Below, piece after piece: positions 912 to 61,370 of a stretch of DNA of 64,000 nucleotides (position 1 is its first letter; every line of letters starts with the position of its first letter). The notes below the pieces were generated by a model. The model was not told the origin of the DNA, did not search any database, and was given only the letters and a program-made list of their open reading frames with translations. The DNA lies in assembly GCA_018400295.1 (NCBI GenBank), contig JAGYMZ010000012.1:1129-65128 (forward strand), given 5' to 3'. The translations under genes were made by a program, and so were the position numbers. The stretch is from Bacteroidales bacterium (lineage in GTDB: Bacteria; Bacteroidota; Bacteroidia; Bacteroidales; B18-G4).

Positions 912-2612
912 ATGAACCATTCTTCGGATATCTGGCTCAAAGCCTCCGTGGCCGGAAGTCTGTGGGCTGGCAATGAGATCATTGTCGGAAGTTTTCTTCA
1001 CAATCTTCATGTGCCCTTGTCGGGCATGATCCTATCCATGGTATCGGTTGCTTTGATGGTGGGATTCCTGCAGGTTTGGCGGGATAAAGGACTCATCTGG
1101 CGGGCAGGGTTGATCTGTGCCCTTATGAAATCCGTTTCACCAAGTGCAGTGATCATCGGTCCTATGGTGGGTATTTTCATGGAGGCTCTTCTGATGGAAG
1201 GGTCCATCGTTGTTTTTGGAAGGAACTGGGCCGGATTTATTATTGGTGGCATCGCAGGAGTTTTGAGCACTTTGGTTCACAAGGTTGTAAGCCTTTTGCT
1301 TTTATATGGATTTGATTTTATACGTTTGATCGAAAGCATGTATTTGTTTGCCGTCGGGCAATTACGTTTTGAACAACTGGAACCTGTTGTTGCACTCATG
1401 ATACTGATATCGGTGTATACAATATTCGGGATTATGTCTGCACTTTTCGGCGTTAGGGCCGGCATGCTGTTCCAACGTTCGGGAATGGGAAGCGGCAGGG
1501 CGGGGAATGAGGATATAAAAAAAGGTCCTATCCGGTGGGCACCACCAAAGCACAGGAACAACCTGTTCTTTATTTTTCTGCATATTCTTGCCATGGTACT
1601 TGTCCTTTTTCTTATCAATCGATTTCCAATTTACCTGGGTGGCGGACTGGCATTTTTATACATTGTATTTGCCATTCTGTTTTATAAGCAAACGGTCCGG
1701 TATTTAAGCAAGCCAGGATTCTGGATGCAGATCCTGTTTATGGTGTTGGTTGCTTCCTTGTTTTGGGAGTGGGTTGAGACAGGAAAAATGCTGAGTATGG
1801 AAGGATTGCTCACAGGAATTAAGATGATGATCAGGGCCCTGGTTATCGTTGTGGGATTTGCCGCTGTCAGTGTGGAGTTGCGTAGTCCGGTCGTACGGGC
1901 CATTATAGTGGACAGAGGATATCCTCAACTGTATAATTCCCTGGAATTGGCATTTTCCATATTACCTTCTGTTGTGAAGCATTTTGTCAAACCTTACCGC
2001 CTGCTCACACGTCCGGTCCGTTCAATGGCCTATATACTTTCCATGGCTGAGGAATTGTACAATGAACAAAAAACGGCCGGAAAGAGGACTGTTACTATTC
2101 TGGAAGGTGGCATTGATGCGGGGAAAACATCTTATTTAAAGAAATATATAAGGATGGCGAGATCCAAAGGGATCAAGGTAGCCGGGATCCTGTCAGAGAA
2201 GAAATACACAGGCGGAGCACATATGGGCTATATGATACAAAACGTGGGAACGGGGGAAAGGCGACAGTTATGTACCACCGGAAAGCACGAGGGGTGGCCT
2301 GCGGTGGGCCGGTATTATTTTAATCCGGAAGCATTTGAAGCGGGTATCAAATGGATTTCCGGATCCGCAAAACAGGCAGGGCTCATTATTATCGATGAAA
2401 TCGGTCCGCTTGAGCTGAAGGGTCGGGGATGGGCCCCGGTTTTAAACCGGATCGAAGCGCTGGGGGGCAAATGGTTGCTGGTTGTAAGGGAAGGACTTGT
2501 AACTGAAGTAGTAAATAGGTTCAATCTCCACGATGCACAAATAAAAAAGTTGGCGGATGTTGATGTTGGGGGGGAGGTTTTTACAGATGTCATCCAGATG
2601 TCATCCGGATGA
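912..2612 (+). CDS. Polytopic membrane protein (ECF-transporter-like) fused to a C-terminal P-loop NTPase (NTPase_1/THEP1-like)
   Basis: First ~380 aa contain many hydrophobic helices; C-terminus has Walker A GGIDAGKT and Walker B IIIDEIG with GPLEL, typical of THEP1/DUF2478-type NTPases. Confidence 0.7.
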   Translation: MNHSSDIWLKASVAGSLWAGNEIIVGSFLHNLHVPLSGMILSMVSVALMVGFLQVWRDKGLIWRAGLICALMKSVSPSAVIIGPMVGIFMEALLMEGSIVVFGRNWAGFIIGGIAGVLSTLVHKVVSLLLLYGFDFIRLIESMYLFAVGQLRFEQLEPVVALMILISVYTIFGIMSALFGVRAGMLFQRSGMGSGRAGNEDIKKGPIRWAPPKHRNNLFFIFLHILAMVLVLFLINRFPIYLGGGLAFLYIVFAILFYKQTVRYLSKPGFWMQILFMVLVASLFWEWVETGKMLSMEGLLTGIKMMIRALVIVVGFAAVSVELRSPVVRAIIVDRGYPQLYNSLELAFSILPSVVKHFVKPYRLLTRPVRSMAYILSMAEELYNEQKTAGKRTVTILEGGIDAGKTSYLKKYIRMARSKGIKVAGILSEKKYTGGAHMGYMIQNVGTGERRQLCTTGKHEGWPAVGRYYFNPEAFEAGIKWISGSAKQAGLIIIDEIGPLELKGRGWAPVLNRIEALGGKWLLVVREGLVTEVVNRFNLHDAQIKKLADVDVGGEVFTDVIQMSSG

Positions 2613-2618
2613 CATCTG
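2584..2618. repeat. Palindromic repeat copy 1: (CAGATGTCATC)2-CG-(GATGACATCTG)1
   Basis: Read directly; perfect 24-bp palindrome at 2595-2618 plus one extra unit; contains the TGA stop of the 912-2612 gene. Confidence 0.9.
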
Positions 2619-2634
2619 AGAACATATCATATAT

Positions 2635-2642
2635 TATATTTG
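2635..2642 (+). promoter_or_regulatory. Bacteroidota primary-sigma -7 element (TATATTTG) for the FMN reductase gene
   Basis: Matches TAnnTTTG, 33 nt upstream of ATG 2676. Confidence 0.55.
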
Positions 2643-2675
2643 TTAGTACAGCAAAACCCACAAAATTCAATAATT

Positions 2676-3254
2676 ATGAAATATACTATTTGCCTTATTT
2701 ATGGTTCGGTTCGGTTTGAAAGAAAAGGAATAAAGGCTGCCAATTATATGAGATCAAAGTTGGAAGAAATGGGGTATTTGGTACACTTTATTGATCCCCG
2801 GGAATATCAATTGCCTTTCCTTGATAAAATGTACAAGGAATTCCCCCAGGGCAGTGCGCCTGAAGTCATGGAAGAAATTGCCGAAAAACTAAGAAGCTCC
2901 GATGGTTTTATAATTGTTACCGGAGAGTATAACCACAGCATACCACCAGCATTGAAAAACTTATTGGATCATTTTCAGCAAGAGTATTACTTTAAGCCTA
3001 GCGCCATCGTGTCATATTCCGGTGGGTATTTTGGTGGCGTTCGTGCTGCTGTTCAGTTGCGGGCGATCTTGGCCGAGTTAGGCATGTCGAGCATACCTTC
3101 TGTGCTTCCGGTGCCGTTTGTACAGGATGCTTTTGATAAGGATGATCAACCGGTTAATGATATTATAAATCGGTCGGCAAAAAGATTTTTAAATGAATTT
3201 GAATGGTACCTGGAAGCGTTGAAGCTTCAGCGGGAGAAAGGAACACCGCACTAA
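2676..3254 (+). CDS. NAD(P)H-dependent FMN reductase family protein
   Basis: GSVR..RKG, VTGEYNHSIPPALKNLLD, KPSAIVSYSGGYFGGVRA motifs; ATG at 2676 preferred over TTG 2640. Confidence 0.9.
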   Translation: MKYTICLIYGSVRFERKGIKAANYMRSKLEEMGYLVHFIDPREYQLPFLDKMYKEFPQGSAPEVMEEIAEKLRSSDGFIIVTGEYNHSIPPALKNLLDHFQQEYYFKPSAIVSYSGGYFGGVRAAVQLRAILAELGMSSIPSVLPVPFVQDAFDKDDQPVNDIINRSAKRFLNEFEWYLEALKLQREKGTPH

Positions 3255-3316: not shown

Positions 3317-3363
3317 CAGATGTCATCCGGATGACATCTGGGATGACATCTGGATGACATCTG
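3317..3363. repeat. Palindromic repeat copy 2: (CAGATGTCATC)1-CG-GATGACATCTG-G-(GATGACATCTG)2
   Basis: Read directly; 24-bp palindrome at 3317-3340 followed by two more right-hand units; lies between convergent genes. Confidence 0.9.
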
Positions 3364-3401
3364 AAAAAAATGGGTCAGCAAGAATTCCCTCACTGACCCA
3401 T
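3364..3401 (-). terminator. Probable intrinsic terminator of the 3425-6526 gene
   Basis: ATGGGTCAG...CTGACCCAT stem; the A7 on the + strand gives a U-tract on the - strand. Confidence 0.55.
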
Positions 3402-21165: not shown

Positions 21166-21909
21166 TTACATTTTAAGCAGTGTATGTATGAACAGGTTCA
21201 TGTCGTCGATGTGTGTGCCTTTCCAGTATATTTTCCCGCAATTGCTGCAGCGGTAGAATTCATTGAAGCATTTTTTGGTCCCCGGTTCCAGGCGGTCAAT
21301 GATGGCTTCTTTGTCCACTTTTTCAATTCTTCCGTTGCATTGCATACAGCGGCTGTATGGCTTTATTTTCCCCTTCAGGTCAAAACGCTCCAGGACTTCC
21401 CTGAGCTGCTCCGGCGGGTGTATGTTCCGCACATAATACCCTCGTTGTACCTTTCCGTTCTTCAATATGCCCAAATCGCGGGTCAGTATGGTCCGTTGCT
21501 CCCGGGTTGCGGCCTCTATGATCCCGGGATCGTCGAGATCCTTGTCAAAGCAAGAATCAAACCCCAGCATCCGAAGGTTGCGGGCCAGCTTGCCCAGGTG
21601 TACATCCAGGATGAAGCGTGGAACCCTCAAAGGTTCGGGTCGGAGGCGGTTGACCGGGGAAATGTCCATGGATTCAAATACCGGATAAACCGAAACACGG
21701 TCCCCCTCCGACGGTTTATAGCTGAAACCGACCGGTTCGCCATTTGCCAGAACCAGGTCCACCTCTACGTGCGGTATCCCTATGCTTTCAATGATGTCTT
21801 TGATGGTCGGCGTTCCGTTGAATCGATGCCGGAATTCGGTCTTTTTCCTTCTGGACGGAAGAAAATCATTCAACTCTTCATAAAACCGGATGTGTATATG
21901 CGATGGCAT
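21166..21909 (-). CDS. Mut7-C RNase domain protein with N-terminal ubiquitin-like domain
   Basis: FYEELNDFLP, IKDIIESIGIPHVEVDL, FILDVHLGKLARNLRMLGFD, C-terminal CxxC...CxxC zinc ribbon with IYWKGTH. Confidence 0.88.
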   Translation of the reverse strand: MPSHIHIRFYEELNDFLPSRRKKTEFRHRFNGTPTIKDIIESIGIPHVEVDLVLANGEPVGFSYKPSEGDRVSVYPVFESMDISPVNRLRPEPLRVPRFILDVHLGKLARNLRMLGFDSCFDKDLDDPGIIEAATREQRTILTRDLGILKNGKVQRGYYVRNIHPPEQLREVLERFDLKGKIKPYSRCMQCNGRIEKVDKEAIIDRLEPGTKKCFNEFYRCSNCGKIYWKGTHIDDMNLFIHTLLKM

Positions 21910-25236: not shown

Positions 25237-25282
25237 CAGATGTCATCCAGATGTCATCCGGATGACATCTGGATGACATCTG
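25237..25282. repeat. Palindromic repeat copy 3: (CAGATGTCATC)2-CG-(GATGACATCTG)2, perfect 46-bp palindrome
   Basis: Read directly; 20 nt downstream of the OTC stop codon. Confidence 0.92.
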
Positions 25283-25302: not shown

Positions 25303-26304
25303 CTAACTCCCTAGCGTTGCTACCATCACAGCTTTGATGGTATGGAGGCGGTTTTCGGCCTGGTCAAAGACAACGGAAGCGGGGGATTCAAAGACATCAT
25401 CGTTCACTTCCATGGCGTCAACACCAAATTTTTGATAAATGTTTTCACCTACCTTGGTTTCCCTGTTATGAAAGGAAGGCAGGCAGTGGAGAAATTTAAC
25501 GTGCGGATTTCCAGTTTTTTGCAGCAACTTGTTGTTGATCTGGTAGGGCATCATCATGTTGATCCTCCGCTCATACTCAGAATCCGGTTCTCCCATGGAT
25601 ACCCATACGTCTGTGTACAGAAAATCCACTCCTTTGACGCCTTTTTCTACATCATCGGTTATTGTGATGGTTGCGCCGGTATCTTTTGCTGTGTTTTTAC
25701 ATTGGTTAACCAGTTCTTCCGGGGGGAAAAATTCTTCAGGGGCACAGGCCCGGAAATCCATGCCCATCTTTGATGCACCGACCATCAGTGAATTACCCAT
25801 ATTGTTCCGGGCATCGCCAAGATAACAGAATGAGATCTTATGCAGGGGTTTGTCGCTATGCTCCATCATGGTCAGAAAATCCGCAAGGATCTGTGTCGGA
25901 TGATACTCGTTGGTAAGCCCGTTCCAGACGGGCACACCTGCATATGTACCCAGCTCTTCAACAATTGCCTGTCCGAAACCCCGGTACTCAATACCGTCAT
26001 ACATTCTACCCAGCACCCTGGCTGTATCTTTCATGGATTCCTTGTGGCCGATCTGAGATCCGGAGGGCCCGAGATATGTGACCTGTGCCCCCTGGTCAAA
26101 GGCTGCCACTTCGAATGCACAGCGCGTACGGGTAGAAGATTTTTCAAATATCAGTGCAATGTTCTTACCTTTGAGCCGTGGTTGCTCAGTGCCCGAATAC
26201 TTTGCTTTCTTCAGGTCTGCGGAAAGATCAAGCAAAAACCGGATCTCTTTGGGTGTGAAGTCGAGCAACTTCAGAAAATTTCTGTTCCTTAAATTGTATG
26301 CCAT
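25303..26304 (-). CDS. argF: Ornithine carbamoyltransferase (catabolic ArcB-like)
   Basis: STRTR, HPTQ, DVWVSMG, HCLP motifs; ATG 26304 (MAYNLRNRN) supported by TATTTTTG element at 26350-26357. Confidence 0.93.
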
Positions 26305-26409
26305 GGTCTTTATTTTATGATAACACATTGATATGTTCCTCCGGAGTGGCAAAAATAGTATAAAATCTGCATTTTAATTTCAAAGAACCCCATAAGCCTC
26401 AAAAACGAC

Positions 26410-53371: not shown

Positions 53372-56300
53372 TTAGCGGGCTATGATGATCTTTGCCGCCT
53401 TTTTTACATTATCCTGTATCAGTATGCCAATATATAATCCTTCAGGAAAATCATGCAGGTTTATGGTCATATCCTTTTTATCTGCGGGTATTTTCCAGTT
53501 ACCCATGGTTTTCCCAAGCAGATCAATGATCATGAATTCTGTGCCTTGCGTTGTTTGATGGTTCAGTGTGATCTTCAGGATGCCGGATGTAGGATTGGGA
53601 TGGAATGACACAGGAAGGTCGTTCACCGGTTCCTGAATATTTGTGGTATTATCCAGGATCACTTCGCAGGGATCTGATTCCGGTCCGGATCCGCACATAT
53701 TGGCAGCCGACACACGAATGTGTGCGGTTCCCATATAATTGGCATTCCAGATGGCAATTGCAGTTTCATTATTTCCTTCCATTATTCCGGCCTCCCCGGG
53801 TTCCAGGTACCAGTTATAAGCTGTTGCCCCTGGCAGAGGATCAATGCTGTATTCGGAATACTGTACCGACAGCAGGTCCACGTAACCCGGTCCATCAGGT
53901 ATGTCCGGCATTCCGGGAATTCCTGTAATATCCAAAGCCATTTCATCTTCTACAGAGGAATCTCCATCACCATAGGCTGTAAGGGTCAGAAGTACGCCCC
54001 CGTTTTGAATGTCTTGGGTACTAGGGGAATATACCGGGTTAAGCAGGGTTTCATCATTGAAGGTGCCTGTCCCGGAGGTATTCCATTCCAGTGCGTTGTA
54101 TGCAGTGGCTTCTCCGTGGCACTGAAAATCCTCATCCGTGCAGATAACTTCATCCGGTCCGGCGTAACAGGTCAGGGTTGTCTTCGGGGGCATGATGATA
54201 AAGTCAAGCCAGGCCTGATCGGCACCTGCACTGCCGGTGGCATCCTTTGCATATACCCATTTAAATGTATGATTGCCTGTGGGAACAAAAAAGGTTTCTT
54301 TTGTCCATCCCTGATACGTTCCTGACCATTCTGCTTTCAGGTTGCCGTTAATATAGAATTTTAACTTATCCAGATCTTCTTCAGAAGACACCTTTTTTAT
54401 GAAAGAAATACTGTCGCTGGTCATGGTTCGCATCTGGAGACTGAGCACACACTTCTCACCGTTGTCAATGGCCCCGGTTTTTGCACTGTATATACCTTCA
54501 TAAGGGTATGTGCTGGTTATTTCCCACGGCTCATCCCCTCCCATTTCCCAGTCGAATTTTGTGAAATCACCGGTTTCAAAATCTTCAACCAGCAAACCCA
54601 GTTTTTTCCGGAACACCTTGCTTTTTTCGTAAGCATTGGACTGCAGATGATAGTTGAGATAGGCAAATACAACCCCATTGGGGGTTTCAGGGTCAACCAC
54701 AACTTCAAATTCAGCATATTTGTACCCGATTTGATTAAGCTGGCCTATGGAGTCTGTTGTATTTTGGAATTCGAGATAATGGCATGAGGTTTCAATGGTT
54801 GCCAAACAGTTGTTGGCAGGGCAATGTCCGGTATTTCTGTTCTTTACTTTCAGAATGGCGGTTTCACCGGGATCCAGCCGGCCATTGTTATTTCCCTGGC
54901 TGTCATCGATAACCATTTCAAGAATGGTAAGTACGGGGCCATATCCCAAATCATCAAAATGGCTTGTCCAGGTGGTATCTGATATGGCGGTTACTGTGAA
55001 ATTGATCAGATGCTGGTCCGGTAAGTTTTCGGCCACCAGAAATGTAAAAGCGTTCTCTTTGGTTGCGGACTGGCCTGGGTCCAGACTGCCGTAGGATTCT
55101 GTTGAGTCTATCCAGGTAATGTATGGATCATTGGTGCCCAAACACACGTCTACATTTTCTGAGGCCACGGTACCAATATTTTTTACGGTGAAATCGAGGG
55201 AAATATTTTCCCCGAATTCAATGACGGAATTGCCGTTGGAAGCTGTATCAACAATTGTATGCGACTCATAAACCACGTAAGGCTCATCGGTGATCACCAA
55301 AATGCTACCCGTGTGTCTGATGCGGTTATGGCATATCACGGATGCCTGGATGGGTTCTTCGGAAGAAAGGGGTTCAAAAAGGTCCAGGAGGAGATTGCCC
55401 GCATCATCAGCCAGGCCTCTTCCGATAAGGGAGCCATCCTGCATTAATCCGATGCGTGCTCCCGGGGCATCTGTTTCTATGGAAATTTGTGAGGTCCCTA
55501 TGGAAATTGCCGGCGGATAAGAAGCTACGATCGGTGCAGGCTGGGCAGTCCAGATGTCCAGGGTGGGGTCTCCGAACAGGTTCAGTTCATAGTAGCACCA
55601 ACGGATGGCACCGCTGTGAGCATTGATAAAAGCTACGTTATCTTCTTTGGAATCCCTGTTGGCTTCCCCGATCATGGTAATATCTTCTCCGAAAACGGCA
55701 TCAAAAAATTGCCTGTCAAAATACTGCGAGGCACCGTCCGTACTCATATGCTGGCCCCAGCCGTACCGTGAATTGCCAATGTTTGCCACATCTGCGGTTT
55801 CCATGGTGGTAATTTTCTCAGAGAAACAATCTTCGGTGTAATATCCCGGTGATGTTTCCCGGTTATCGAAGGCGCCGTTGTAGCATCCCTGGGAATATCC
55901 GATGGCAAACCCGCGGGTTATTCCGTCATTCGTGAAATTGGTTGTTGTGAGGTCCGTATTATACATCAGCATGTTATATGTGGTACCGGAATGCCCGAGG
56001 TGGTTCCTCAGGTTGACCCCAACATTGCTATATTGATGAAAAACATCATTTTTATCCCAATACATGTCCCGCTCATATAAATACGTTATGTTAAAATTCG
56101 AAGAAAGTCCCACGGTAGTATATCCATGATTGGAACTTCCGAGGGCAACTTCATCCTTATAGTCTCCTCCCCAGGTGGGTTCCGGCCATAGCATCTCACC
56201 AAGCCACAAGGCTTTTTCAATGTCTTCGTTTACGGGGTCATCCTGGTACAGGATATGCTTGTTGACGACATTCTGAATTTCCGTGGAATCATCGGCACAG

Positions 56301-57373
56301 ATCCTTCCAATCCCAACTTCTGCGTACAGGTCTTCTTCGCCCGGTTCTCCATAACGCTGATCGTTATCATCGTCCCAGTTGCCATCCAGGTTGGAATAAT
56401 AGATGTCTGCCGGGAGATCTTCCTCGGGGGTGCTGTATGCATTGCAATAGAAACCACGGTGTGGAATGACGTCTTCCGATGCATTGTTCGGATCGCTGTC
56501 CCCCCCGAGGATAACCCATTGCACGTTGTAGTTCTGTACATGGTCGATGATACAGTTCCTGATCTTATCCTGCTGGTCTGTCCCGGAATATATTGAGAAA
56601 ATATCTTCTGTTGTAATGATGGACGTTATATACCCGGTAGACCTTTTATAGTCCGTATAATCTTCAAAATAAGGCATCAGGTTTTGATTCGTGATCAAAA
56701 GGATGTCGATCTCATCAGATGATTTTCCATCCGGGTAGGTATATTCCTCAAGTTTTCCGGGATTCTCGACGATGTGTTGGATCCGTTGCCTGGACCTATC
56801 CGGGTTTACCAGGAATTTTTGGGCTTCTGCTGCGTCAGCGGAGTTTTTTAGAACGATTTCAAGGGTTATGGATTTCAGGAAGCCGGCCGTATTTCCCCCC
56901 GGGATGTATGTGACCGGACAAAGGGTAAGGGAACCTATCCCGTGACCGGACAAAAAACCGGTATGTATGTTGTCTGCAATACGTTCCGGATAGGGTTCCA
57001 TTGAAGAATACAATTCTTTGTCGGGGCTAACCGTATAGGTAGCCTGCTGGTCCGATAACGGGAACTGCCTTCCTGCCGGCTTGATGGTGATGGATTCTTT
57101 ATCCCCGTAGTACGCGGTCGAAACGATATTTACCCCTGAAATTTCTGTGTTCTGTGGCAACAAAAGGCTTACCGCTTTATGGGGCATGGAAGGATACCCT
57201 TCGGGACCAAAATTATAGCAATCCGGATAGGAAATTACCGTGTATTCTCCTTCACTGATCAAAACAGGATATGGAAAATGGTATGTTTTTGTGAGCGTTT
57301 GTGATAATGCCGGAATAATAGCCATGATCACTATGGTAGCCAGCAATAATGTCCTTTTCATAACACTGTTCAA
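53372..57373 (-). CDS. C25 family (gingipain-like) cysteine peptidase, T9SS-secreted
   Basis: Propeptide; VILGGD, NHLGH, SQGCYNG, NLFGDP; Ig and jelly-roll tail; HPNPTSG...GLYI CTD. Confidence 0.88.
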   Translation of the reverse strand: MNSVMKRTLLLATIVIMAIIPALSQTLTKTYHFPYPVLISEGEYTVISYPDCYNFGPEGYPSMPHKAVSLLLPQNTEISGVNIVSTAYYGDKESITIKPAGRQFPLSDQQATYTVSPDKELYSSMEPYPERIADNIHTGFLSGHGIGSLTLCPVTYIPGGNTAGFLKSITLEIVLKNSADAAEAQKFLVNPDRSRQRIQHIVENPGKLEEYTYPDGKSSDEIDILLITNQNLMPYFEDYTDYKRSTGYITSIITTEDIFSIYSGTDQQDKIRNCIIDHVQNYNVQWVILGGDSDPNNASEDVIPHRGFYCNAYSTPEEDLPADIYYSNLDGNWDDDNDQRYGEPGEEDLYAEVGIGRICADDSTEIQNVVNKHILYQDDPVNEDIEKALWLGEMLWPEPTWGGDYKDEVALGSSNHGYTTVGLSSNFNITYLYERDMYWDKNDVFHQYSNVGVNLRNHLGHSGTTYNMLMYNTDLTTTNFTNDGITRGFAIGYSQGCYNGAFDNRETSPGYYTEDCFSEKITTMETADVANIGNSRYGWGQHMSTDGASQYFDRQFFDAVFGEDITMIGEANRDSKEDNVAFINAHSGAIRWCYYELNLFGDPTLDIWTAQPAPIVASYPPAISIGTSQISIETDAPGARIGLMQDGSLIGRGLADDAGNLLLDLFEPLSSEEPIQASVICHNRIRHTGSILVITDEPYVVYESHTIVDTASNGNSVIEFGENISLDFTVKNIGTVASENVDVCLGTNDPYITWIDSTESYGSLDPGQSATKENAFTFLVAENLPDQHLINFTVTAISDTTWTSHFDDLGYGPVLTILEMVIDDSQGNNNGRLDPGETAILKVKNRNTGHCPANNCLATIETSCHYLEFQNTTDSIGQLNQIGYKYAEFEVVVDPETPNGVVFAYLNYHLQSNAYEKSKVFRKKLGLLVEDFETGDFTKFDWEMGGDEPWEITSTYPYEGIYSAKTGAIDNGEKCVLSLQMRTMTSDSISFIKKVSSEEDLDKLKFYINGNLKAEWSGTYQGWTKETFFVPTGNHTFKWVYAKDATGSAGADQAWLDFIIMPPKTTLTCYAGPDEVICTDEDFQCHGEATAYNALEWNTSGTGTFNDETLLNPVYSPSTQDIQNGGVLLTLTAYGDGDSSVEDEMALDITGIPGMPDIPDGPGYVDLLSVQYSEYSIDPLPGATAYNWYLEPGEAGIMEGNNETAIAIWNANYMGTAHIRVSAANMCGSGPESDPCEVILDNTTNIQEPVNDLPVSFHPNPTSGILKITLNHQTTQGTEFMIIDLLGKTMGNWKIPADKKDMTINLHDFPEGLYIGILIQDNVKKAAKIIIAR

Positions 57374-57380
57374 TTAGGGT

Positions 57381-60300
57381 TTATTTGTTGATGATCAATT
57401 TTTTCGTCGTTTTCCAACCGGCGCCTTCTGCAGCAATAAAATACAATCCTGCCGGCAGGGAACCCAAAGTGAGATTGATGGACCGTTGACCGTTCATGGC
57501 AAGCTGTTCTTCATAAACAATGCTGCCCACGACAGTAAATACCCTGAGGTCAACATGTTCACGAACGGGGGTTGTAAAGTGGACTGTAAACCTGTCCCGC
57601 CCCGGGTTGGGATAAATGGTCATTCCTTTCTGATCCTGAATTTCATGAAGCCCTACCGGGTTGTTAACAGTAATTTCCAGGCTTTCAGAAAATTCACTGT
57701 CGCCGCACCCGTTTGTGGATTGGACGTTGAGGGTTGCAAAACCGGAATATTCTTCATTCCAAACGACGCGGCACGTAGTGCCGGTTCCCGTGGAAGTCCC
57801 GGCATCTGATGGCTCCAGTACCCAGTTGTATGCGGTTGTATGAGGGACGCTATTCGTTTCATAAAACGATACGGGCATGCTAATCCAATCAATGTTGTCC
57901 GGGCCGGATGGTTTATCCGGAGTTTCCGGAATGGTGATGAAGGTAATTTTTGTCACGTCCTGGAAGGAATCGCCCTGGGAACCGGTAACCGTCAGGGTCA
58001 GTTCCACAGATCCGTCTTCAATATCTTCGTTGCTGGGCGTATAAAGAGGTTGCAGTATGGAGGGGTCGTTGAATGTTCCGGTACCGGAAGTTGTCCAGTC
58101 CGCCGTTTGCCATGCAGTGGCTTCCCCCTGGCACAGATAATCATTGGTTTCACAGCATACATCATCCGGGCCGGCGTAGCAGGTAAGTGCCATCAGTGGA
58201 GGCATTACTACAAAATCGAGCCATCCGCAATCACTGCCAGCGCTTCCCTGTCCATCTTTCTGGTACACCCATTTATAGGTATGGCTTCCGGTAGGTGCAG
58301 GCACAGCAATGTATTGCCATCCTGCTGAAGTCCCTGACCATTCCCCTTTAAGGGTGTTGTCAATAAAGAATTTTAACTTATCCTGATTTGATTGTGAAGA
58401 TACTTTCTTTATAAACGTAATGCTGTCGGCGGTCATGACATTCAGGGTCAGCGACAGGGTACTGGTCTGTCCGTCTTCAATGGTGCCGGATTTGGCACTG
58501 TATATTCCCTCATAGGGAAAAACATCCGTGATGGTCCAGGGCTCGTTTCCTCCCATTTCCCAGTCGAATTTTTCAAAATCACCGGTTTCAAAATCATCAT
58601 AGATCAGGCCCAGCTTTCGGCGGAAGGTTTTATCTGCCTGGAAGGGGCCTGCCTCCAAATGATAGATGAAGTCAGCCAGCACACATCCGTTGGGTGTTTC
58701 AGGATGTACGTGAACAGTGAACGTGGCATATTTAAAACCGAGCAAGCCTAATGCGCCTATGGTATCGGTGGTATTTTCGAATGTCACATAGGCATTATAG
58801 GCATTGAGGGTAGCAACAGCATTTTCCGTGATGCAATGCCCGGTATTTTTATTCTTGATTTTTAAATCTGCGGTTTCACCCGGATCCAGCCGCCCGTTAC
58901 CATTGCCAAACTCACTGTCGTCTATGATCATTTCCTGTATTGATAGTACAGGTCTGTTCAGGGTAACCGAAAAATCTGTTGTCCAGGTTTCTTTCCCTTC
59001 TGCTTCCATGACCATATCAAATACGACAATATGCTGGTCCTCGATATCTTCCTGGACCTGGAAAGTGAAGGCATTTTCCTGGGAGGCTGTTGACAATCCT
59101 GGTACGATACCCCATTCCTGATAATCATCTGTCAGGATTATATTCGGGTCGGCAGAAGAAATGCTTACCTGTGTATTGGTTGCATCAGCATTGCCCAGGT
59201 TTTCCAGTTCCATCGTCAAGGATACCAATTCGTTATAATCTGCATGATGGTTGTTATTGCCCAGGGAATCCTCAATAATGAAGTCTTTCAGCACAAGAAA
59301 AGCACCATTGGGGTTGGCTACCGTGACTGTGCCAAAATATGGTTCGCCATTTTGTTTTGTTACGATGACATCTGCCGGGCCCGGAACTGAAAACGGTGTG
59401 ATGGGCAGTTCCAGAAAGCCGGTCTCATCGGCAATATCTGCTCCATGCAGCACGCCATCCCTTGATAATGCAACGTATGCATAAGGCTCTGTGTTGACCA
59501 CAAAAGTTGTTGATGAAAGGGGCAGTAATTCATCATAATTTACTGCGATCACCGGTGGCTCAGAAAAATAGACCATGAGGGAGGGGTCGCCCATGAGATT
59601 GTAAATATCCCAGTAATAATCTGCCATTCCGGGGGATCCTTCCAACACGGCAAGGTTTCCTGCATAAATCATTTGATCGGCCGTAACGAACCAGTCTTCA
59701 AATGGCTCACCATGGTCGTGAAAGGACCGGTCATAGGAACCCAGCGTGGTTTCTTCATAGGGTGGGGGTATTTCGGATATTTCGCCGACCCCTACAGCGT
59801 AATAGTAATCTTCATCCCAGTAAGTACTGTTGGAAGCACCGATATATCCTACGGATCCTTTATTTTCCGCCCTTAGCAATGCCTCGGCGAAACATTCACT
59901 TACCTGGTATTCGCTTGATGAGCAACAGTTACCGACCAGCACTCCATATTTACTTTCATTTTCAAGGCTTGCAATGTCGGAAATTGTAAAAGAAGGGTCG
60001 GCCCATCCGTTCGGACTGCAATGGGCGGTATAATTTCCAAAGGTGACCCCATCGCTTATGTTTTGGATGATCTGGGCACTGGAGCTTCCGGATTCGGGGT
60101 AAAGATAGTCATGGGCGAGGATGCCATGATCCTGGTTGAAATAATTTGTGGTTCCGTAGTTGATCTGACCATTGCCCCAGTCATGGCCATGGCCGGCATC
60201 CACACCGGAAACCAGCACAACTTCGTCCAGGTAGGACGGATCGGGCATGGTATATTTTTCGTATTCAATGGTTTTGTCTATATACGGTTGAAACTGGTCT

Positions 60301-61370
60301 TCATTTTGAGCGGAAAACCGTCCGTAGAAGATCTCGGGAAGGAGGTCCCCGGTAAATTCACAGTAATTTCTGTCCGTTACACCATTTCCGTTATCATAGG
60401 AAGGGATTTGTTCAATATCTCCGGCAAAGACGACAAAAGAGGGTGCCGGGTCTTCCGGTGTGCCGGCATCATACAGGGATTGAATATATGCTTTGATCGA
60501 GGCGAGACTGCTTCCAACGTTTTGTTCATCCGTATATGCTTCAACAACGGTGAACCCTTTTTGCTTTTTCCATTCGATCAGGGGTTGTAGCTGCGTTTCA
60601 AACATGCGGTCGGCGATAATCACGTATTTAACGGGATACCGGGTAAAGTTTTCCCGGTTTGAGAGGGGCTTATAATTCAGCAGCAGGTTGTTAAGCGGTT
60701 CGAAATAGATGGAGGCCAGACGTTTCTTTAGATCCAGGGTTGCCTGTGTATCTGCATTTTCGAATAGAATTTCAAACCTGATGTTGTCGTATACCATTAG
60801 CTGGTGTGTAACGGGATTGTACCGGACCGGAGCGATATTCAGCCGTGCAATTCTTGTGCTGCGCATAAATCCAATAACGTCAACCGAAACGAGTTCTTCC
60901 TGAAAGTACCTGTCGGTTTGGTAAGCCGTTTCATCATAGATAAAATCATGCTGGTCATCACTTTTAGACCTGGGAGGTTGAAGAGGGTACAGCGGGTGCC
61001 GGATATCCAGCACAGAGAGGTCGATTATGGTATGCGATGCTGATGTGATCTTTACGACCGGTTCCGCTCCTACGGGAATTTCGATCAGTTCACGTTTGAC
61101 CGGCAGTTCTGGTTTGCCGGGTTCCAGGCTTCTGGCATATCCCGGTATGGAGATCCTGGTGAACTTTCCCTGTTCGGTTTGGATTTCGTGATTCCTGACC
61201 GTACCGGTGGTTATCATACCGCCCAGTCTTTGATAAGTATTATCCGTCAATTCCAATACATTTTCCATGGCAGGATTGACAAGGATGTCCTGTGGAAATG
61301 AAGCATGTGGAATAAGAAATGAAAATATGGCGGCGATCAGGCCTAAGCCTTTAAATATGTTGCGATGCAT
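57381..61370 (-). CDS. C25 family cysteine peptidase, Lys-gingipain (Kgp)-like, T9SS-secreted
   Basis: GKPELP propeptide; GRFSA, YEKY, NYTAHC, GNCC, YWDEDYY, YNLMGDP; YPNP CTD. Confidence 0.9.
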   Translation of the reverse strand: MHRNIFKGLGLIAAIFSFLIPHASFPQDILVNPAMENVLELTDNTYQRLGGMITTGTVRNHEIQTEQGKFTRISIPGYARSLEPGKPELPVKRELIEIPVGAEPVVKITSASHTIIDLSVLDIRHPLYPLQPPRSKSDDQHDFIYDETAYQTDRYFQEELVSVDVIGFMRSTRIARLNIAPVRYNPVTHQLMVYDNIRFEILFENADTQATLDLKKRLASIYFEPLNNLLLNYKPLSNRENFTRYPVKYVIIADRMFETQLQPLIEWKKQKGFTVVEAYTDEQNVGSSLASIKAYIQSLYDAGTPEDPAPSFVVFAGDIEQIPSYDNGNGVTDRNYCEFTGDLLPEIFYGRFSAQNEDQFQPYIDKTIEYEKYTMPDPSYLDEVVLVSGVDAGHGHDWGNGQINYGTTNYFNQDHGILAHDYLYPESGSSSAQIIQNISDGVTFGNYTAHCSPNGWADPSFTISDIASLENESKYGVLVGNCCSSSEYQVSECFAEALLRAENKGSVGYIGASNSTYWDEDYYYAVGVGEISEIPPPYEETTLGSYDRSFHDHGEPFEDWFVTADQMIYAGNLAVLEGSPGMADYYWDIYNLMGDPSLMVYFSEPPVIAVNYDELLPLSSTTFVVNTEPYAYVALSRDGVLHGADIADETGFLELPITPFSVPGPADVIVTKQNGEPYFGTVTVANPNGAFLVLKDFIIEDSLGNNNHHADYNELVSLTMELENLGNADATNTQVSISSADPNIILTDDYQEWGIVPGLSTASQENAFTFQVQEDIEDQHIVVFDMVMEAEGKETWTTDFSVTLNRPVLSIQEMIIDDSEFGNGNGRLDPGETADLKIKNKNTGHCITENAVATLNAYNAYVTFENTTDTIGALGLLGFKYATFTVHVHPETPNGCVLADFIYHLEAGPFQADKTFRRKLGLIYDDFETGDFEKFDWEMGGNEPWTITDVFPYEGIYSAKSGTIEDGQTSTLSLTLNVMTADSITFIKKVSSQSNQDKLKFFIDNTLKGEWSGTSAGWQYIAVPAPTGSHTYKWVYQKDGQGSAGSDCGWLDFVVMPPLMALTCYAGPDDVCCETNDYLCQGEATAWQTADWTTSGTGTFNDPSILQPLYTPSNEDIEDGSVELTLTVTGSQGDSFQDVTKITFITIPETPDKPSGPDNIDWISMPVSFYETNSVPHTTAYNWVLEPSDAGTSTGTGTTCRVVWNEEYSGFATLNVQSTNGCGDSEFSESLEITVNNPVGLHEIQDQKGMTIYPNPGRDRFTVHFTTPVREHVDLRVFTVVGSIVYEEQLAMNGQRSINLTLGSLPAGLYFIAAEGAGWKTTKKLIINK

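What the first reader, a model, noticed from the sequence alone, without database searches (positions are those of the whole stretch)
25237..25282. Dispersed, modular palindromic repeat family built from an 11-bp unit
Seen: three loci (2584-2618, 3317-3363, 25237-25282) have the form U(n)-CG-U'(m), with U = CAGATGTCATC and U' its reverse complement. The (n,m) values are (2,1), (1,3 with one extra G) and (2,2). All 11 units are identical while the copy number varies, and the flanks are unrelated. All three sit at gene 3' ends. The largest is a perfect 46-bp palindrome with no loop, which can form a cruciform. Established: REP/BIME elements sit at gene ends and are spread by RAYT transposases, but they are normally looped hairpins with a GTAG/CGTC foot. 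Inference: an undescribed REP-like element that grows by unit addition, or a helically phased protein-binding array (11 bp is about one turn) for a nucleoid, partition or regulatory protein. No transposase is present in the window.
Basis: partly seen in the sequence, partly recalled or inferred. Interest (0 to 1): 0.7.

Follow-up and report, generated by a model that had tools for sequence, protein, structure and literature searches.

The report
Dispersed 11-bp-unit palindromic repeat family
An uncultured Bacteroidota species carries about twenty copies of a small non-coding repeat built from identical 11-base units, usually as a 46-base perfect palindrome wedged just after a gene's stop codon; it behaves like a small selfish repeat that I could not find named, and nothing known to spread such repeats was found with it.

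Summary
The window holds 12 exact copies of CAGATGTCATC (about 1 expected). Eleven form the three arrays as described.

Genome-wide (2.63 Mb, 92% complete) there are 66 exact units in about 20 arrays. Eleven arrays are 46 bp long, and six of those are identical perfect palindromes. None lies inside a gene body. Nine of 20 lie within 10 nt of a facing stop codon (7.5% expected).

Unit number varies in nature: a roughly 1%-divergent strain in another study has the 24-bp (1,1) core where the window has (1,3+G).

The family was not found in 40 relatives or in 400 genomes sampled from the same order. It does occur in two other Bacteroidales MAGs, as direct 2-12-unit arrays of a one-base variant (GATGTCTTC-CA), also hugging stop codons, at non-orthologous loci.

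G000 has no RAYT/Y1, reverse transcriptase, rve, IS110 or TnpB gene, and only a fragment of a DDE_Tnp_1 transposase. No target-site duplications were seen.

Best reading: a lineage-restricted dispersed short-tandem-repeat element, resembling REP, STRR and MIRU elements. It is copied to new sites by an unknown route, and changes length by slippage or strand switching. It is not a REP sensu stricto. Protein binding was not tested. The scan has met analogous families on other DNA.

The parts
25237..25282 (.). Array 3: canonical form U U CG U' U', a 46-bp perfect palindrome. It lies 20 nt after the carbamoyltransferase stop and 19 nt before the predicted start of the next minus-strand gene.
   Evidence: Folds as a 21-bp stem with a 4-nt loop: -38.6 kcal/mol as RNA with 10-nt flanks, -22.9 kcal/mol as DNA. 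Scores as terminator-like on the minus strand with the tail ATTTTAGT. Five other copies in the genome are identical.
2584..2618 (.). Array 1: 35-bp three-unit form U U CG U'. It supplies the last 9 codons and the TGA stop of ORF 912-2612.
   Evidence: Logan contigs stop inside it. The 34-nt repeat unitig there has about 12 times single-copy depth in two runs.
3317..3363 (.). Array 2: 47-bp form U CG U' G U' U' between convergent genes. It is polymorphic: a 24-bp U CG U' core in another natural strain.
   Evidence: Bridged unchanged by contigs of runs X1 and X9. The X4 contig (38 other letters over 4.4 kb) lacks 23 nt at 3329.
3370..3401 (-). Separate canonical terminator-like hairpin plus T run of the T9SS-cargo gene. 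Its T run abuts array 2.
   Evidence: It shows that array 2 is not needed as that gene's terminator.
912..2612 (+). Membrane/NTPase_1 gene whose C-terminus runs into array 1.
   Evidence: Orthologues in G002 and G003 align only to residue 536-549 of 566.
2640..3254 (+). NADPH-dependent FMN reductase gene bracketed by arrays 1 and 2. It is absent from this position in G002.
25303..26352 (-). Ornithine/aspartate carbamoyltransferase gene. Array 3 follows its stop codon.
59364..59374 (-). Lone exact unit inside a C25 peptidase gene. Probably a chance match and not part of the family.

Best explanation
The 46-bp palindrome is the commonest form, in this species, of a lineage-restricted, non-coding, dispersed short-tandem-repeat element.

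The building block is an 11-bp unit: the 9-mer GATG(T/A)C(A/T)TC plus a pyrimidine-purine spacer.

Shown:
- Arrays of 2-4 units (2-12 or more in two other genomes) sit at unrelated intergenic sites, mostly within a few nucleotides of a stop codon.
- They are absent from orthologous sites of congeners.
- Their unit number differs between strains.

Inferred:
- The element is selfish or neutral DNA, copied as a whole to new sites by a trans-acting activity that I could not identify. It is not a RAYT.
- Unit number then changes by replication slippage.
- In this species the unit became a quasi-palindrome (GATGTCATC), which allowed strand switching. Two polar arrays that each end in ...GATGTCATC-CC were thereby joined head to head (centre CC|GG), giving the 2+2 palindrome, and that form then multiplied.
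- As a by-product it can supply stop codons. At some sites it may supply a transcript-end hairpin.
For: 1. Copy number and identity. There are 66 exact units in about 20 arrays on 11 contigs. Six 46-bp copies are identical and five more differ by 1-2 bases. Flanks are unrelated. The repeat unitig has about 12 times single-copy depth in two independent runs.

2. Position. 0 of 20 arrays lie in gene bodies. 9 of 20 lie within 10 nt of a facing stop, against 7.5% of random intergenic positions (p about 6e-6). 12 of 20 lie within 25 nt, against 15.6%. The 54 flanking genes examined have unrelated housekeeping functions.

3. Filled versus empty sites. At C12:46567, C12:122098 and C89:70171 the flanking genes are adjacent and collinear in same-genus genomes, and the array is missing there.

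4. Restricted, patchy distribution.
- The 24-mer core is in 0 of 40 relatives.
- Three phased units are in 0 of 400 sampled genomes of the order.
- 0 of 5 nearest genomes match even with 3 mismatches.
- Two other MAGs have about 40 two-unit matches per strand each, while 59 of their relatives have none.
- G000 orthologues of 16 genes flanking those MAGs' arrays are never next to a G000 array.

5. Variable unit number.
- (1,1) versus (1,3+G) at array 2 between strains.
- 4 versus 5 units, and 12 versus at least 5 units, at orthologous loci of the two MAGs, whose flanks are about 90% identical.

6. Shared end. Direct-type arrays in G000 (C18:37494, C34:1236, C67:20803) and most complete arrays in the MAGs end in GATGTCATC-CC. 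This fits a CC|GG junction at the palindrome centre.

7. One copy (C89:73161) has a symmetric C>G / G>C change at both tips, as expected if one arm is copied from the other.
Against: - No mobilising enzyme was found. In G000: Y1_Tnp 0, RVT_1 0, rve 0, IS110 0, TnpB 0. DDE_Tnp_1 is present only as a 38-residue fragment at a contig end. No family is shared by the three array-bearing genomes. All three are MAGs, in which insertion sequences often fail to assemble.
- No target-site duplication or target motif is visible in the flanks (by eye).
- No strain with a wholly empty site at near-identical sequence was seen. The same-genus genomes are only 65-78% identical in DNA, so insertion points cannot be defined to the base.
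- 6 of 9 array loci compared with congeners also show an extra or missing gene or a synteny break. An array-free 20 kb next door is collinear in 3 of 3. Arrays may therefore mark variable junctions or scars and need not be simple insertions.
- Conservation of unit sequence at orthologous loci across about 10% flank divergence could also mean function.
- The strand-switch and head-to-head steps are inference only.
Confidence: 0.6

Rival explanations
1. The arrays are phased binding sites for a DNA-binding protein. Each 9-bp near-palindrome would be bound by a dimer, with successive dimers on one face of the helix at 11-bp spacing. The protein would be a nucleoid, partition, replication-initiator-like or regulatory protein, and the dispersed arrays would serve a cellular or mobile-element function.
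For: - The period is strictly 11 bp in 3 genomes, and the 9-mer core is conserved while spacers vary among CG, CA, TG and TA.
- The unit is a near-palindrome in G000.
- Unit sequence is kept at orthologous loci of the two MAGs despite about 10% flank divergence.
- From recall, not tested here: 11-bp iterons are bound by RepB of pMV158 and ParR of plasmid R1; tandem palindromic boxes are bound by MetJ; the TGTCA-at-11-bp geometry resembles OmpR/PhoB boxes.
Against: - Not found in 3 of 3 same-genus genomes or 400 sampled genomes of the order, so it is not a conserved host system.
- The dominant unit in the other two genomes (GATGTCTTC) is not palindromic.
- Spacers and flanking positions are identical between copies in G000, which indicates copying and not convergence on a binding motif.
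- Arrays sit after stop codons, not in promoter regions, next to functionally unrelated genes.
- No candidate protein was identified.
Confidence: 0.15
2. The palindromes are kept because they act at the RNA level, as bidirectional transcription terminators or 3'-end stabilising hairpins. This is the role suggested for some REP, STRR and SPRITE elements.
For: - The hairpin is very stable: -38.6 kcal/mol, z = -8.5.
- 16 of 20 arrays face a gene 3' end within 68 nt.
- Array 3 plus ATTTTAGT passes a simple terminator scan in the sense of the upstream gene.
- 7 of 17 gene-facing tails have at least 5 T in 8.
Against: - 10 of 17 gene-facing tails lack a T run.
- Array 2 sits just beyond a separate canonical terminator. 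Several arrays in the MAGs likewise follow GC-hairpin + T-run terminators.
- Arrays in the MAGs are direct repeats that cannot form long hairpins.
- Two G000 arrays lie between divergent genes.
- No Rfam family matches.
- RNA 3' ends could not be examined: all runs are kept as contigs, and the one read-laying run was used on DNA runs.
Confidence: 0.12
3. The arrays are scars or recombination substrates of genome rearrangement, not simple insertions. Either they are left where DNA was lost or exchanged in this reduced genome, or, being identical palindromes, they recombine with each other and so come to lie at deletion and inversion junctions.
For: 6 of 9 array loci compared with congeners coincide with structural differences.
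- At C12:86775, an extra roughly 0.7-kb gene is present in G002 and G003.
- At array 3, an extra small gene is present in G001 and a different neighbour in G002.
- Between arrays 1 and 2 the gene content differs.
- The gene bracketed by the C5 pair lies elsewhere in G003.
- At C12:60930, collinearity in G002 ends exactly at the array edge.
- At C89:73161 there are 0.6-kb and 34-kb differences.

An array-free 20 kb is collinear in 3 of 3. G000 is 2.6 Mb against 2.9-4.2 Mb for its congeners. Three array pairs lie within 3 kb of each other; I estimate about 0.4 expected by chance.
Against: - 3 of 9 loci are simple filled sites in conserved synteny.
- The baseline is small. Other breaks not at arrays exist in G001 and G003.
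- Variable junctions may simply be the places where insertions are tolerated.
- The direction of change is unknown without an outgroup.
- This reading does not explain where the arrays first came from.
Confidence: 0.1
4. The palindromes are assembly or fold-back artefacts.
For: Perfect palindromes can arise from chimeric fold-back reads. Logan contigs break inside array 1.
Against: - About 20 loci have unique flanks on both sides in the assembly.
- Array 2 is bridged identically in contigs of two other runs, and with a 23-nt variant in a third.
- Flanks of six other copies were recovered as loose ends in runs from three studies.
- Contig breaks at a repeat longer than the 31-letter word size are expected.
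Confidence: 0.01

Closest known systems
REP / BIME / REPIN elements mobilised by RAYT (Y1 HUH) transposases (Enterobacteria, Pseudomonas). Size range 21-65 bp, from passages of the review PMC3184786; the rest is recalled.
   Same: Short (46 bp) extragenic palindromes, tens of copies, unrelated flanks, no target duplication, often just after stop codons, lineage-specific sequence.
   Different: - No Y1_Tnp gene in the genome.
- No GTAG/CGTC head.
- A perfect palindrome built from identical tandem 11-bp units, not an imperfect stem with a loop.
- No REPIN-type doublets.
- In two other genomes the same family is a direct tandem array.
STRR (short tandemly repeated repetitive) sequences of filamentous cyanobacteria. 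Usually 7-bp repeats, able to form hairpins, function unknown (passage of PMC2670836).
   Same: Dispersed intergenic arrays of a very short unit repeated in tandem, sometimes arranged so that they form hairpins. Dispersal mechanism unknown.
   Different: The unit is 11 bp, not 7. The phylum is different. Copy number is far lower. Arrays lie tightly against stop codons.
MIRU-VNTR loci of Mycobacterium tuberculosis. 40-100 bp units, 40-50 loci, intergenic within operons, ends overlap the adjacent genes, absent from homologous sites of M. leprae (passages of PMC3184786).
   Same: - Dispersed tandem arrays whose unit number varies between strains.
- Ends overlap the stop codon of the upstream gene (5 of 20 here).
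- Filled versus empty sites between related species.
   Different: - The unit is four to nine times shorter.
- No tetranucleotide direct repeats flank the arrays.
- No evidence that the arrays provide real start codons: the one case I checked was an ORF-calling artefact.
MITEs such as Correia, RUP and Nezha (recalled; general description in PMC3184786).
   Same: Non-autonomous, inverted-repeat-ended, intergenic, able to alter gene ends.
   Different: No target-site duplication. No parent insertion sequence with matching ends in the assembly. The whole element is only two 22-bp arms. The unit number varies.
Analogous unnamed families met earlier in this scan on other DNA (AI notes e1-4948500, e1-2223374, e1-3790008, e1-1364272, e1-4216659).
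   Same: Intergenic hairpins or arrays whose arms are tandem short units. All were filed as REP/BIME-like with an unknown mobiliser.
   Different: Different unit sequences and lengths (6-9 or 21 nt) and different phyla. I did not re-test those notes.

Membership tests
REP/REPIN-RAYT system | A RAYT (Y1_Tnp, PF01797) gene in the same genome, typically flanked by REPs | tested here: not met
   0 matches in G000 (92% complete). The control search found it in 6 of 14 reference genomes.
REP/REPIN-RAYT system | Imperfect palindrome with a conserved 5' GTAG or CGTC tetranucleotide (recalled definition) | tested here: not met
   the element begins CAGATG. Six copies are perfect palindromes with no unpaired foot.
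REP/REPIN-RAYT system | Short extragenic repeat (21-65 bp), many copies, unrelated flanks | tested here: met
   about 20 arrays of 20-47 bp, none in a gene body. Size range from PMC3184786.
MITE | Terminal inverted repeats flanked by a target-site duplication | tested here: not met
   the flanks of 16 full arrays, inspected by eye, show no consistent direct repeat or TA/TTAA-type target.
MITE | A related autonomous insertion sequence with the same ends | tested here: inconclusive
   Every occurrence of the unit in G000 was listed, and none flanks a transposase gene. Transposase families are nearly absent. The genome is a 91-contig MAG, so unassembled insertion sequences cannot be excluded.
STRR-type dispersed short tandem repeats | Tandem arrays of one very short unit at many unrelated intergenic loci | tested here: met
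   2-12 or more units at about 20 loci in each of three genomes.
STRR-type dispersed short tandem repeats | Heptanucleotide unit, heterocystous cyanobacteria | tested here: not met
   The unit is 11 bp. The host has type IX secretion sorting domains and is Bacteroidota-like.
MIRU-VNTR | Unit number varies between strains at a fixed locus | tested here: met
   23-nt difference at array 2 in run X4; orthologous loci of G041 and G042 differ in unit number.
MIRU-VNTR | 40-100-bp unit carrying small ORFs that couple adjacent genes | tested here: not met
   The unit is 11 bp. The apparent start codon inside array C12:122098 is an artefact: the conserved start lies downstream.
Intrinsic (Rho-independent) terminator | GC-rich stem followed by a U tract in the sense of the upstream gene | tested here: inconclusive
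   array 3 passes a simple scan. 7 of 17 gene-facing tails are T-rich and 10 are not. Array 2 follows a separate canonical terminator.
Protein-binding iteron array | Specific binding by a cognate protein encoded in the genome | not testable with these tools
   No candidate protein was identified. Only the geometry (11-bp phase, near-palindromic core) is consistent.

The most novel reading that the evidence does not exclude
The arrays are products of an undescribed, horizontally transferable repeat-generating or repeat-mobilising activity. It would recognise the 11-bp unit and seed polar arrays from a fixed ...GATGTCATC-CC end next to stop codons or terminators. The 46-bp palindromes would be two such arrays joined head to head (CC|GG), like fused telomere tracts or a replicated hairpin end. 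That would be a new route for making dispersed repeats in bacteria, independent of RAYT and of the transposase families I tested.
Probability: 0.12. Interest if true: 0.8.

Novelty: new variant of a known kind. Interest (0 to 1): 0.45.

Why it matters
Small dispersed palindromic and tandem repeats are common in bacteria, but the way they spread is understood for only one class, REP with RAYT.

This family is unusually clean.
- It has one invariant 11-bp unit and few copies.
- It has two architectures, palindromic and direct, in two lineages of one order, and is not found in the sampled relatives.
- It lies tightly against stop codons.
- Its unit number varies in nature.

That makes it a tractable case for asking how RAYT-less repeats move and whether they drive or mark genome rearrangement. 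The arrays would also make strain-typing markers for this uncultured group.

It is not, on present evidence, a new kind of system.

Tried and rejected
- **Empty sites in same-genus genomes.** These genomes are only 65-78% identical in flanking genes. Intergenic DNA aligns poorly, so insertion points could not be fixed to the base.
- **Metagenome scan for three phased GATGWCATC units.** All 17 loci were GATGTCATC-AT/GT/AC-type tandem repeats of other composition, judged unrelated.
- **Viral contig scans.** Three gave no hit. One gave 4 isolated doublets, judged chance.
- **blastn of the 46-mer against plasmid and phage records.** No match, but BLAST's low-complexity filter may mask such a query.
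- **Full-text search for the 10-11-mers.** 233 papers hold one. The 20 listed were primer or unrelated contexts by title and abstract. I did not open them.
- **Reverse-transcriptase or templated-addition idea.** No RVT_1 in G000 or G042.
- **Array as start-codon donor, as in MIRU.** Rejected for C12:122098. Not checked for C67:20803 or C6:7302.
- **Orthology of array loci between G000 and the two MAGs.** Rejected.
- **Rfam.** Only a tRNA in the window.
- **RNA evidence.** Contigs cannot show RNA ends in any case.
- **Parts of window:1000-7000 without contig cover in some runs.** These carry no meaning.
- **Earlier notes on this genome.** They concern other genes.

Full report
**Observation**

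- 2584-2618 is U U CG U'.
- 3317-3363 is U CG U' G U' U'.
- 25237-25282 is U U CG U' U', a perfect 46-bp palindrome.

Here U = CAGATGTCATC. The window holds 12 exact copies of U on the two strands, and no further sites appear when one mismatch is allowed. Dinucleotide-preserving shuffles give a mean of 1.1, and 0 of 100 shuffles reach 12. The twelfth copy (59364) is a lone unit inside a C25 peptidase gene and is probably chance.

An array is therefore four such 9-mers at 11-bp phase, separated by CA, CG or TG. 'Orientation' rests only on the central base and the spacer.

**The family in the genome**

The window is G000:C4:1129-65128. G000 is a 2.63-Mb, 91-contig, 47.5% G+C assembly that is 92% complete. 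It has type IX secretion sorting domains, so it is a Bacteroidota-type organism.

Genome-wide there are 66 exact units. Allowing one or two mismatches per unit gives about 20 arrays of two or more phased units on 11 contigs.
- Eleven arrays are 46 bp long. Six of these are identical perfect palindromes: C4:26365 (array 3 of the window), C5:24402, C12:46567, C32:19406, C35:7940 and C44:102.
- The other five 46-bp copies differ by one or two bases. In one of them (C89:73161) the two tips are changed symmetrically (G...C).
- Four arrays are 35-bp three-unit forms, and one is the 47-bp form of the window.
- Four are short direct or odd forms (C6:7302, C18:37494, C34:1236, C67:20803).

Flanks are unrelated. 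BLAST of one locus against the genome matches only the arrays themselves.

**Position**

I used a crude gene finder of my own (2085 genes, 92% coding). None of the 20 arrays lies in a gene body.
- Five overlap a stop codon.
- Nine of 20 lie within 10 nt of a stop codon that faces them, against 7.5% of random intergenic positions (binomial p about 6e-6).
- Twelve of 20 lie within 25 nt, against 15.6%.
- Two lie between divergent genes.

The 54 flanking genes scanned with Pfam have unrelated, mostly housekeeping functions: carbamoyltransferase, EF-G, aspartyl-tRNA synthetase, ATP synthase beta, acyl-CoA dehydrogenase and others. None is a transposase or integrase. None of the 46 genes I predicted in the window is one either.

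**Reality and natural variation**

Twenty public runs from seven studies hold window:24000-27000. They come from freshwater sediment, sediment, microbialite and salt lake samples, and all are kept as contigs. I laid four DNA runs from four studies on window:1000-7000.
- Array 2 is bridged unchanged by a 4577-bp contig of X1 and a 516-bp contig of X9.
- A 5460-bp contig of X4 differs at 38 other positions and lacks 23 nt at 3329. That strain therefore has the 24-bp U CG U' core where the window has U CG U' G U' U'. This is direct evidence that unit number changes in nature.
- Contigs stop inside array 1, as expected for a repeat longer than the 31-letter words.
- The 34-nt repeat unitig has depth 252 against about 21 in X1, and 89 against 7 in X4, about twelve-fold in both.
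- The loose ends at array 1 are flanks of other G000 copies (C12:162045, C32, C15, C12:86775, C35, C5:25649; compared by eye). Those copies therefore exist in other populations too.

An artefact is nevertheless very unlikely.

**Distribution**

| Search | Result |
|---|---|
| 24-mer core, one mismatch allowed | 0 of 40 relatives, including 3 of the same genus |
| Three phased GATGWCATC units | 0 of 400 sampled genomes of the order |
| 31-mer of three units, three mismatches allowed | 0 of the 5 nearest genomes |
| Exact scan of one genome per species for the 20-mer centre | 4 records |

Of the four records in the last search, two are isolated matches. The other two are MAGs whose record titles call them uncultured Bacteroidales (handles G041, G042), and they carry real arrays.

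A two-unit pattern allowing the variant GATGWCWTC gives 42/39 matches (forward/reverse) in G041 and 40/32 in G042. It gives none in 59 of their relatives. The genome sizes of those relatives repeat those of G000's same-order list. From this I infer that all three genomes belong to one order but to different families.

JGI metagenome contigs gave only unrelated GATGTCATC-AT/GT-type repeats. Viral contigs, plasmids and phages gave nothing convincing.

**The family in the other two genomes**

In G041 and G042 the dominant unit is GATGTCTTC-CA. It is one base from the G000 unit and is not palindromic. Arrays are direct, with 2-12 or more units, and many sit at contig ends. Complete arrays read (GGTGTCTTC TA) (GATGTCTTC CR)n GATGTCATC CC, with unrelated flanks.

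Orthologous loci of the two MAGs, whose flanks are about 90% identical, differ in unit number: 4 versus 5, 12 versus at least 5, and at least 5 versus 3.

The arrays again hug stop codons. A gene on the opposite strand stops within -5 to +10 nt of the CC end in 13 of the 29 arrays listed. A gene on the same strand stops within -12 to +10 nt of the other end in 11 of them (orthologous loci are counted twice). Several arrays follow a GC hairpin plus T run.

G000 orthologues (35-69% amino-acid identity) of 16 genes flanking these arrays are never next to a G000 array. The family therefore spread independently in the two lineages.

Three of the short G000 arrays also end in GATGTCATC-CC. The centre of the palindrome, CC|GG, is what two such ends joined head to head would give. 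This is inference.

**Comparison with congeners**

The same-genus genomes are 65-78% identical in coding DNA. At three loci the flanking genes are adjacent and collinear in the relatives and the array is missing.
- C12:46567: 3 of 3 relatives.
- C12:122098: G002 and G003. There the array replaces the last few codons and the stop of a DJ-1-like gene, and sits 12 nt before a conserved TATATTTG box. The true start of the next gene is downstream, so my gene call that started inside the array was an artefact.
- C89:70171: 3 of 3, with an alignable right flank.

At six other loci the array coincides with a structural difference.
- An extra gene in relatives at C12:86775.
- An extra small gene or a different neighbour at array 3.
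- A different gene between arrays 1 and 2.
- The gene bracketed by the C5 pair lies elsewhere in G003.
- Collinearity of G002 ends exactly at the edge of C12:60930.
- Differences of 0.6 kb and 34 kb at C89:73161.

An array-free 20 kb beside array 3 is collinear in 3 of 3, although other breaks not at arrays exist in G001 and G003. The sample is small and the direction of change is unknown. I record this as a lead.

**Search for a mobiliser**

| Family | Result |
|---|---|
| Y1_Tnp | 0 in G000 |
| RVT_1 | 0 in G000 and G042, 1 in G041 |
| DDE_Tnp_1 | a 38-residue fragment at the end of a G000 contig; 0 in G041 and G042 |
| rve | 0 in G000 and G042; two low-scoring matches in G041 (one just reaches Pfam's cut-off with its neighbours, one below it) |
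| IS110 | 0 in all three |
| TnpB | 0 in all three |

Nothing is shared by the three carriers. All are MAGs, so absence is weak evidence. The flanks show no target duplication or motif.

**Structure and RNA**

The 46-mer folds as a 21-bp stem with a 4-nt loop: -22.9 kcal/mol as DNA, and -38.6 kcal/mol as RNA with 10-nt flanks. Rfam has no match.

Array 3 followed by ATTTTAGT passes a simple terminator scan in the sense of the upstream gene. However, array 2 sits just beyond a separate canonical terminator, and only 7 of 17 gene-facing tails are T-rich.

**Interpretation**

The best-supported reading is a lineage-restricted, non-coding, dispersed short-tandem-repeat element.

Shown:
- Copying to unrelated sites.
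- Restriction to a few lineages.
- A position just after stop codons.
- Variation in unit number.

Inferred:
- Selfish or neutral status.
- Slippage as the source of unit-number change.
- Strand switching at a quasi-palindromic unit, giving head-to-head 2+2 palindromes that then multiplied.

Unknown: the copying mechanism.

The element works like REP, STRR and MIRU elements but fails the defining tests of each: RAYT and a GTAG head; a 7-bp unit; 40-100-bp units with coupling ORFs. It also fails the MITE test for a target duplication.

What I saw of the literature:
- Passages on STRR in PMC2670836.
- Passages on MIRU and REP in the review PMC3184786.
- Search listings only.
- RAYT/REPIN biology, iteron examples and quasi-palindrome strand switching are recalled, not read here.

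I found no paper naming this unit. One search searched four 10-11-mers: 233 papers hold one, and the 20 listed were unrelated by title.

Earlier AI notes of this scan describe analogous unnamed families with tandem-unit arms on other DNA. This finding is therefore one more instance of a recurring, poorly understood class.

**Verdict**

It is a new variant of a known kind, of moderate interest.

Noticed in passing
G000 contigs: C4:3712/4445, C5:24402/25649, C89:70171/73161 (window 2584 and 3317 for the first pair): Arrays occur in pairs 0.7-3 kb apart that bracket one or two genes: an FMN reductase, a short-chain dehydrogenase, and a deacetylase plus an acyl-CoA synthetase-like gene. I estimate about 0.4 such pairs expected by chance. 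Two of the bracketed genes sit in a different context in congeners. The third bracket is collinear in congeners.
   Followed up: partly
window 25237-25282 and eight other G000 array loci: 6 of 9 array loci compared with same-genus genomes coincide with an extra or missing gene or a synteny break. An adjacent array-free 20 kb is collinear in all three. G000 is also much smaller (2.6 Mb) than its congeners (2.9-4.2 Mb).
   Followed up: partly
L125:10134-10160 (G000 C12, just after array C12:122098); alignment A2: A TATATTTG box conserved in three genomes lies 12 nt after the array. A similar TACTTTTG box lies upstream of the EF-G gene in alignment A1. Both resemble the Bacteroidota promoter -7 motif TAnnTTTG (recalled). 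Arrays sit between the upstream stop and this box.
   Followed up: no
G041 and G042, many contig ends (for example L025, L026, L076, L078, L082, L085-L089): Contigs of both MAGs begin or end inside GATGTCTTCCA arrays. The arrays there exceed what the assemblers could resolve, so true unit numbers and locus counts are underestimated.
   Followed up: no
spacers of all arrays: Spacers are always pyrimidine-purine (CG, CA, TG, TA). These are the set reachable from CG by transitions, which suggests CpG decay and not a structural requirement.
   Followed up: no
window 53372-61367, minus strand: Two adjacent genes of about 1330 residues each, encoding C25 (gingipain-like) peptidases with propeptide domains. 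The type IX secretion sorting domain was detected in the second only.
   Followed up: no
window 21166-21906, minus strand: A gene with a Mut7-C RNase domain fused to a Mut7-C ubiquitin-like domain, next to an uncharacterised 241-residue gene.
   Followed up: no
L108 (viral contig, around 1001-1030): A 17.8-kb viral contig holds 2.5 tandem units GATGACATCCA. It is isolated, and I judged it chance.
   Followed up: partly
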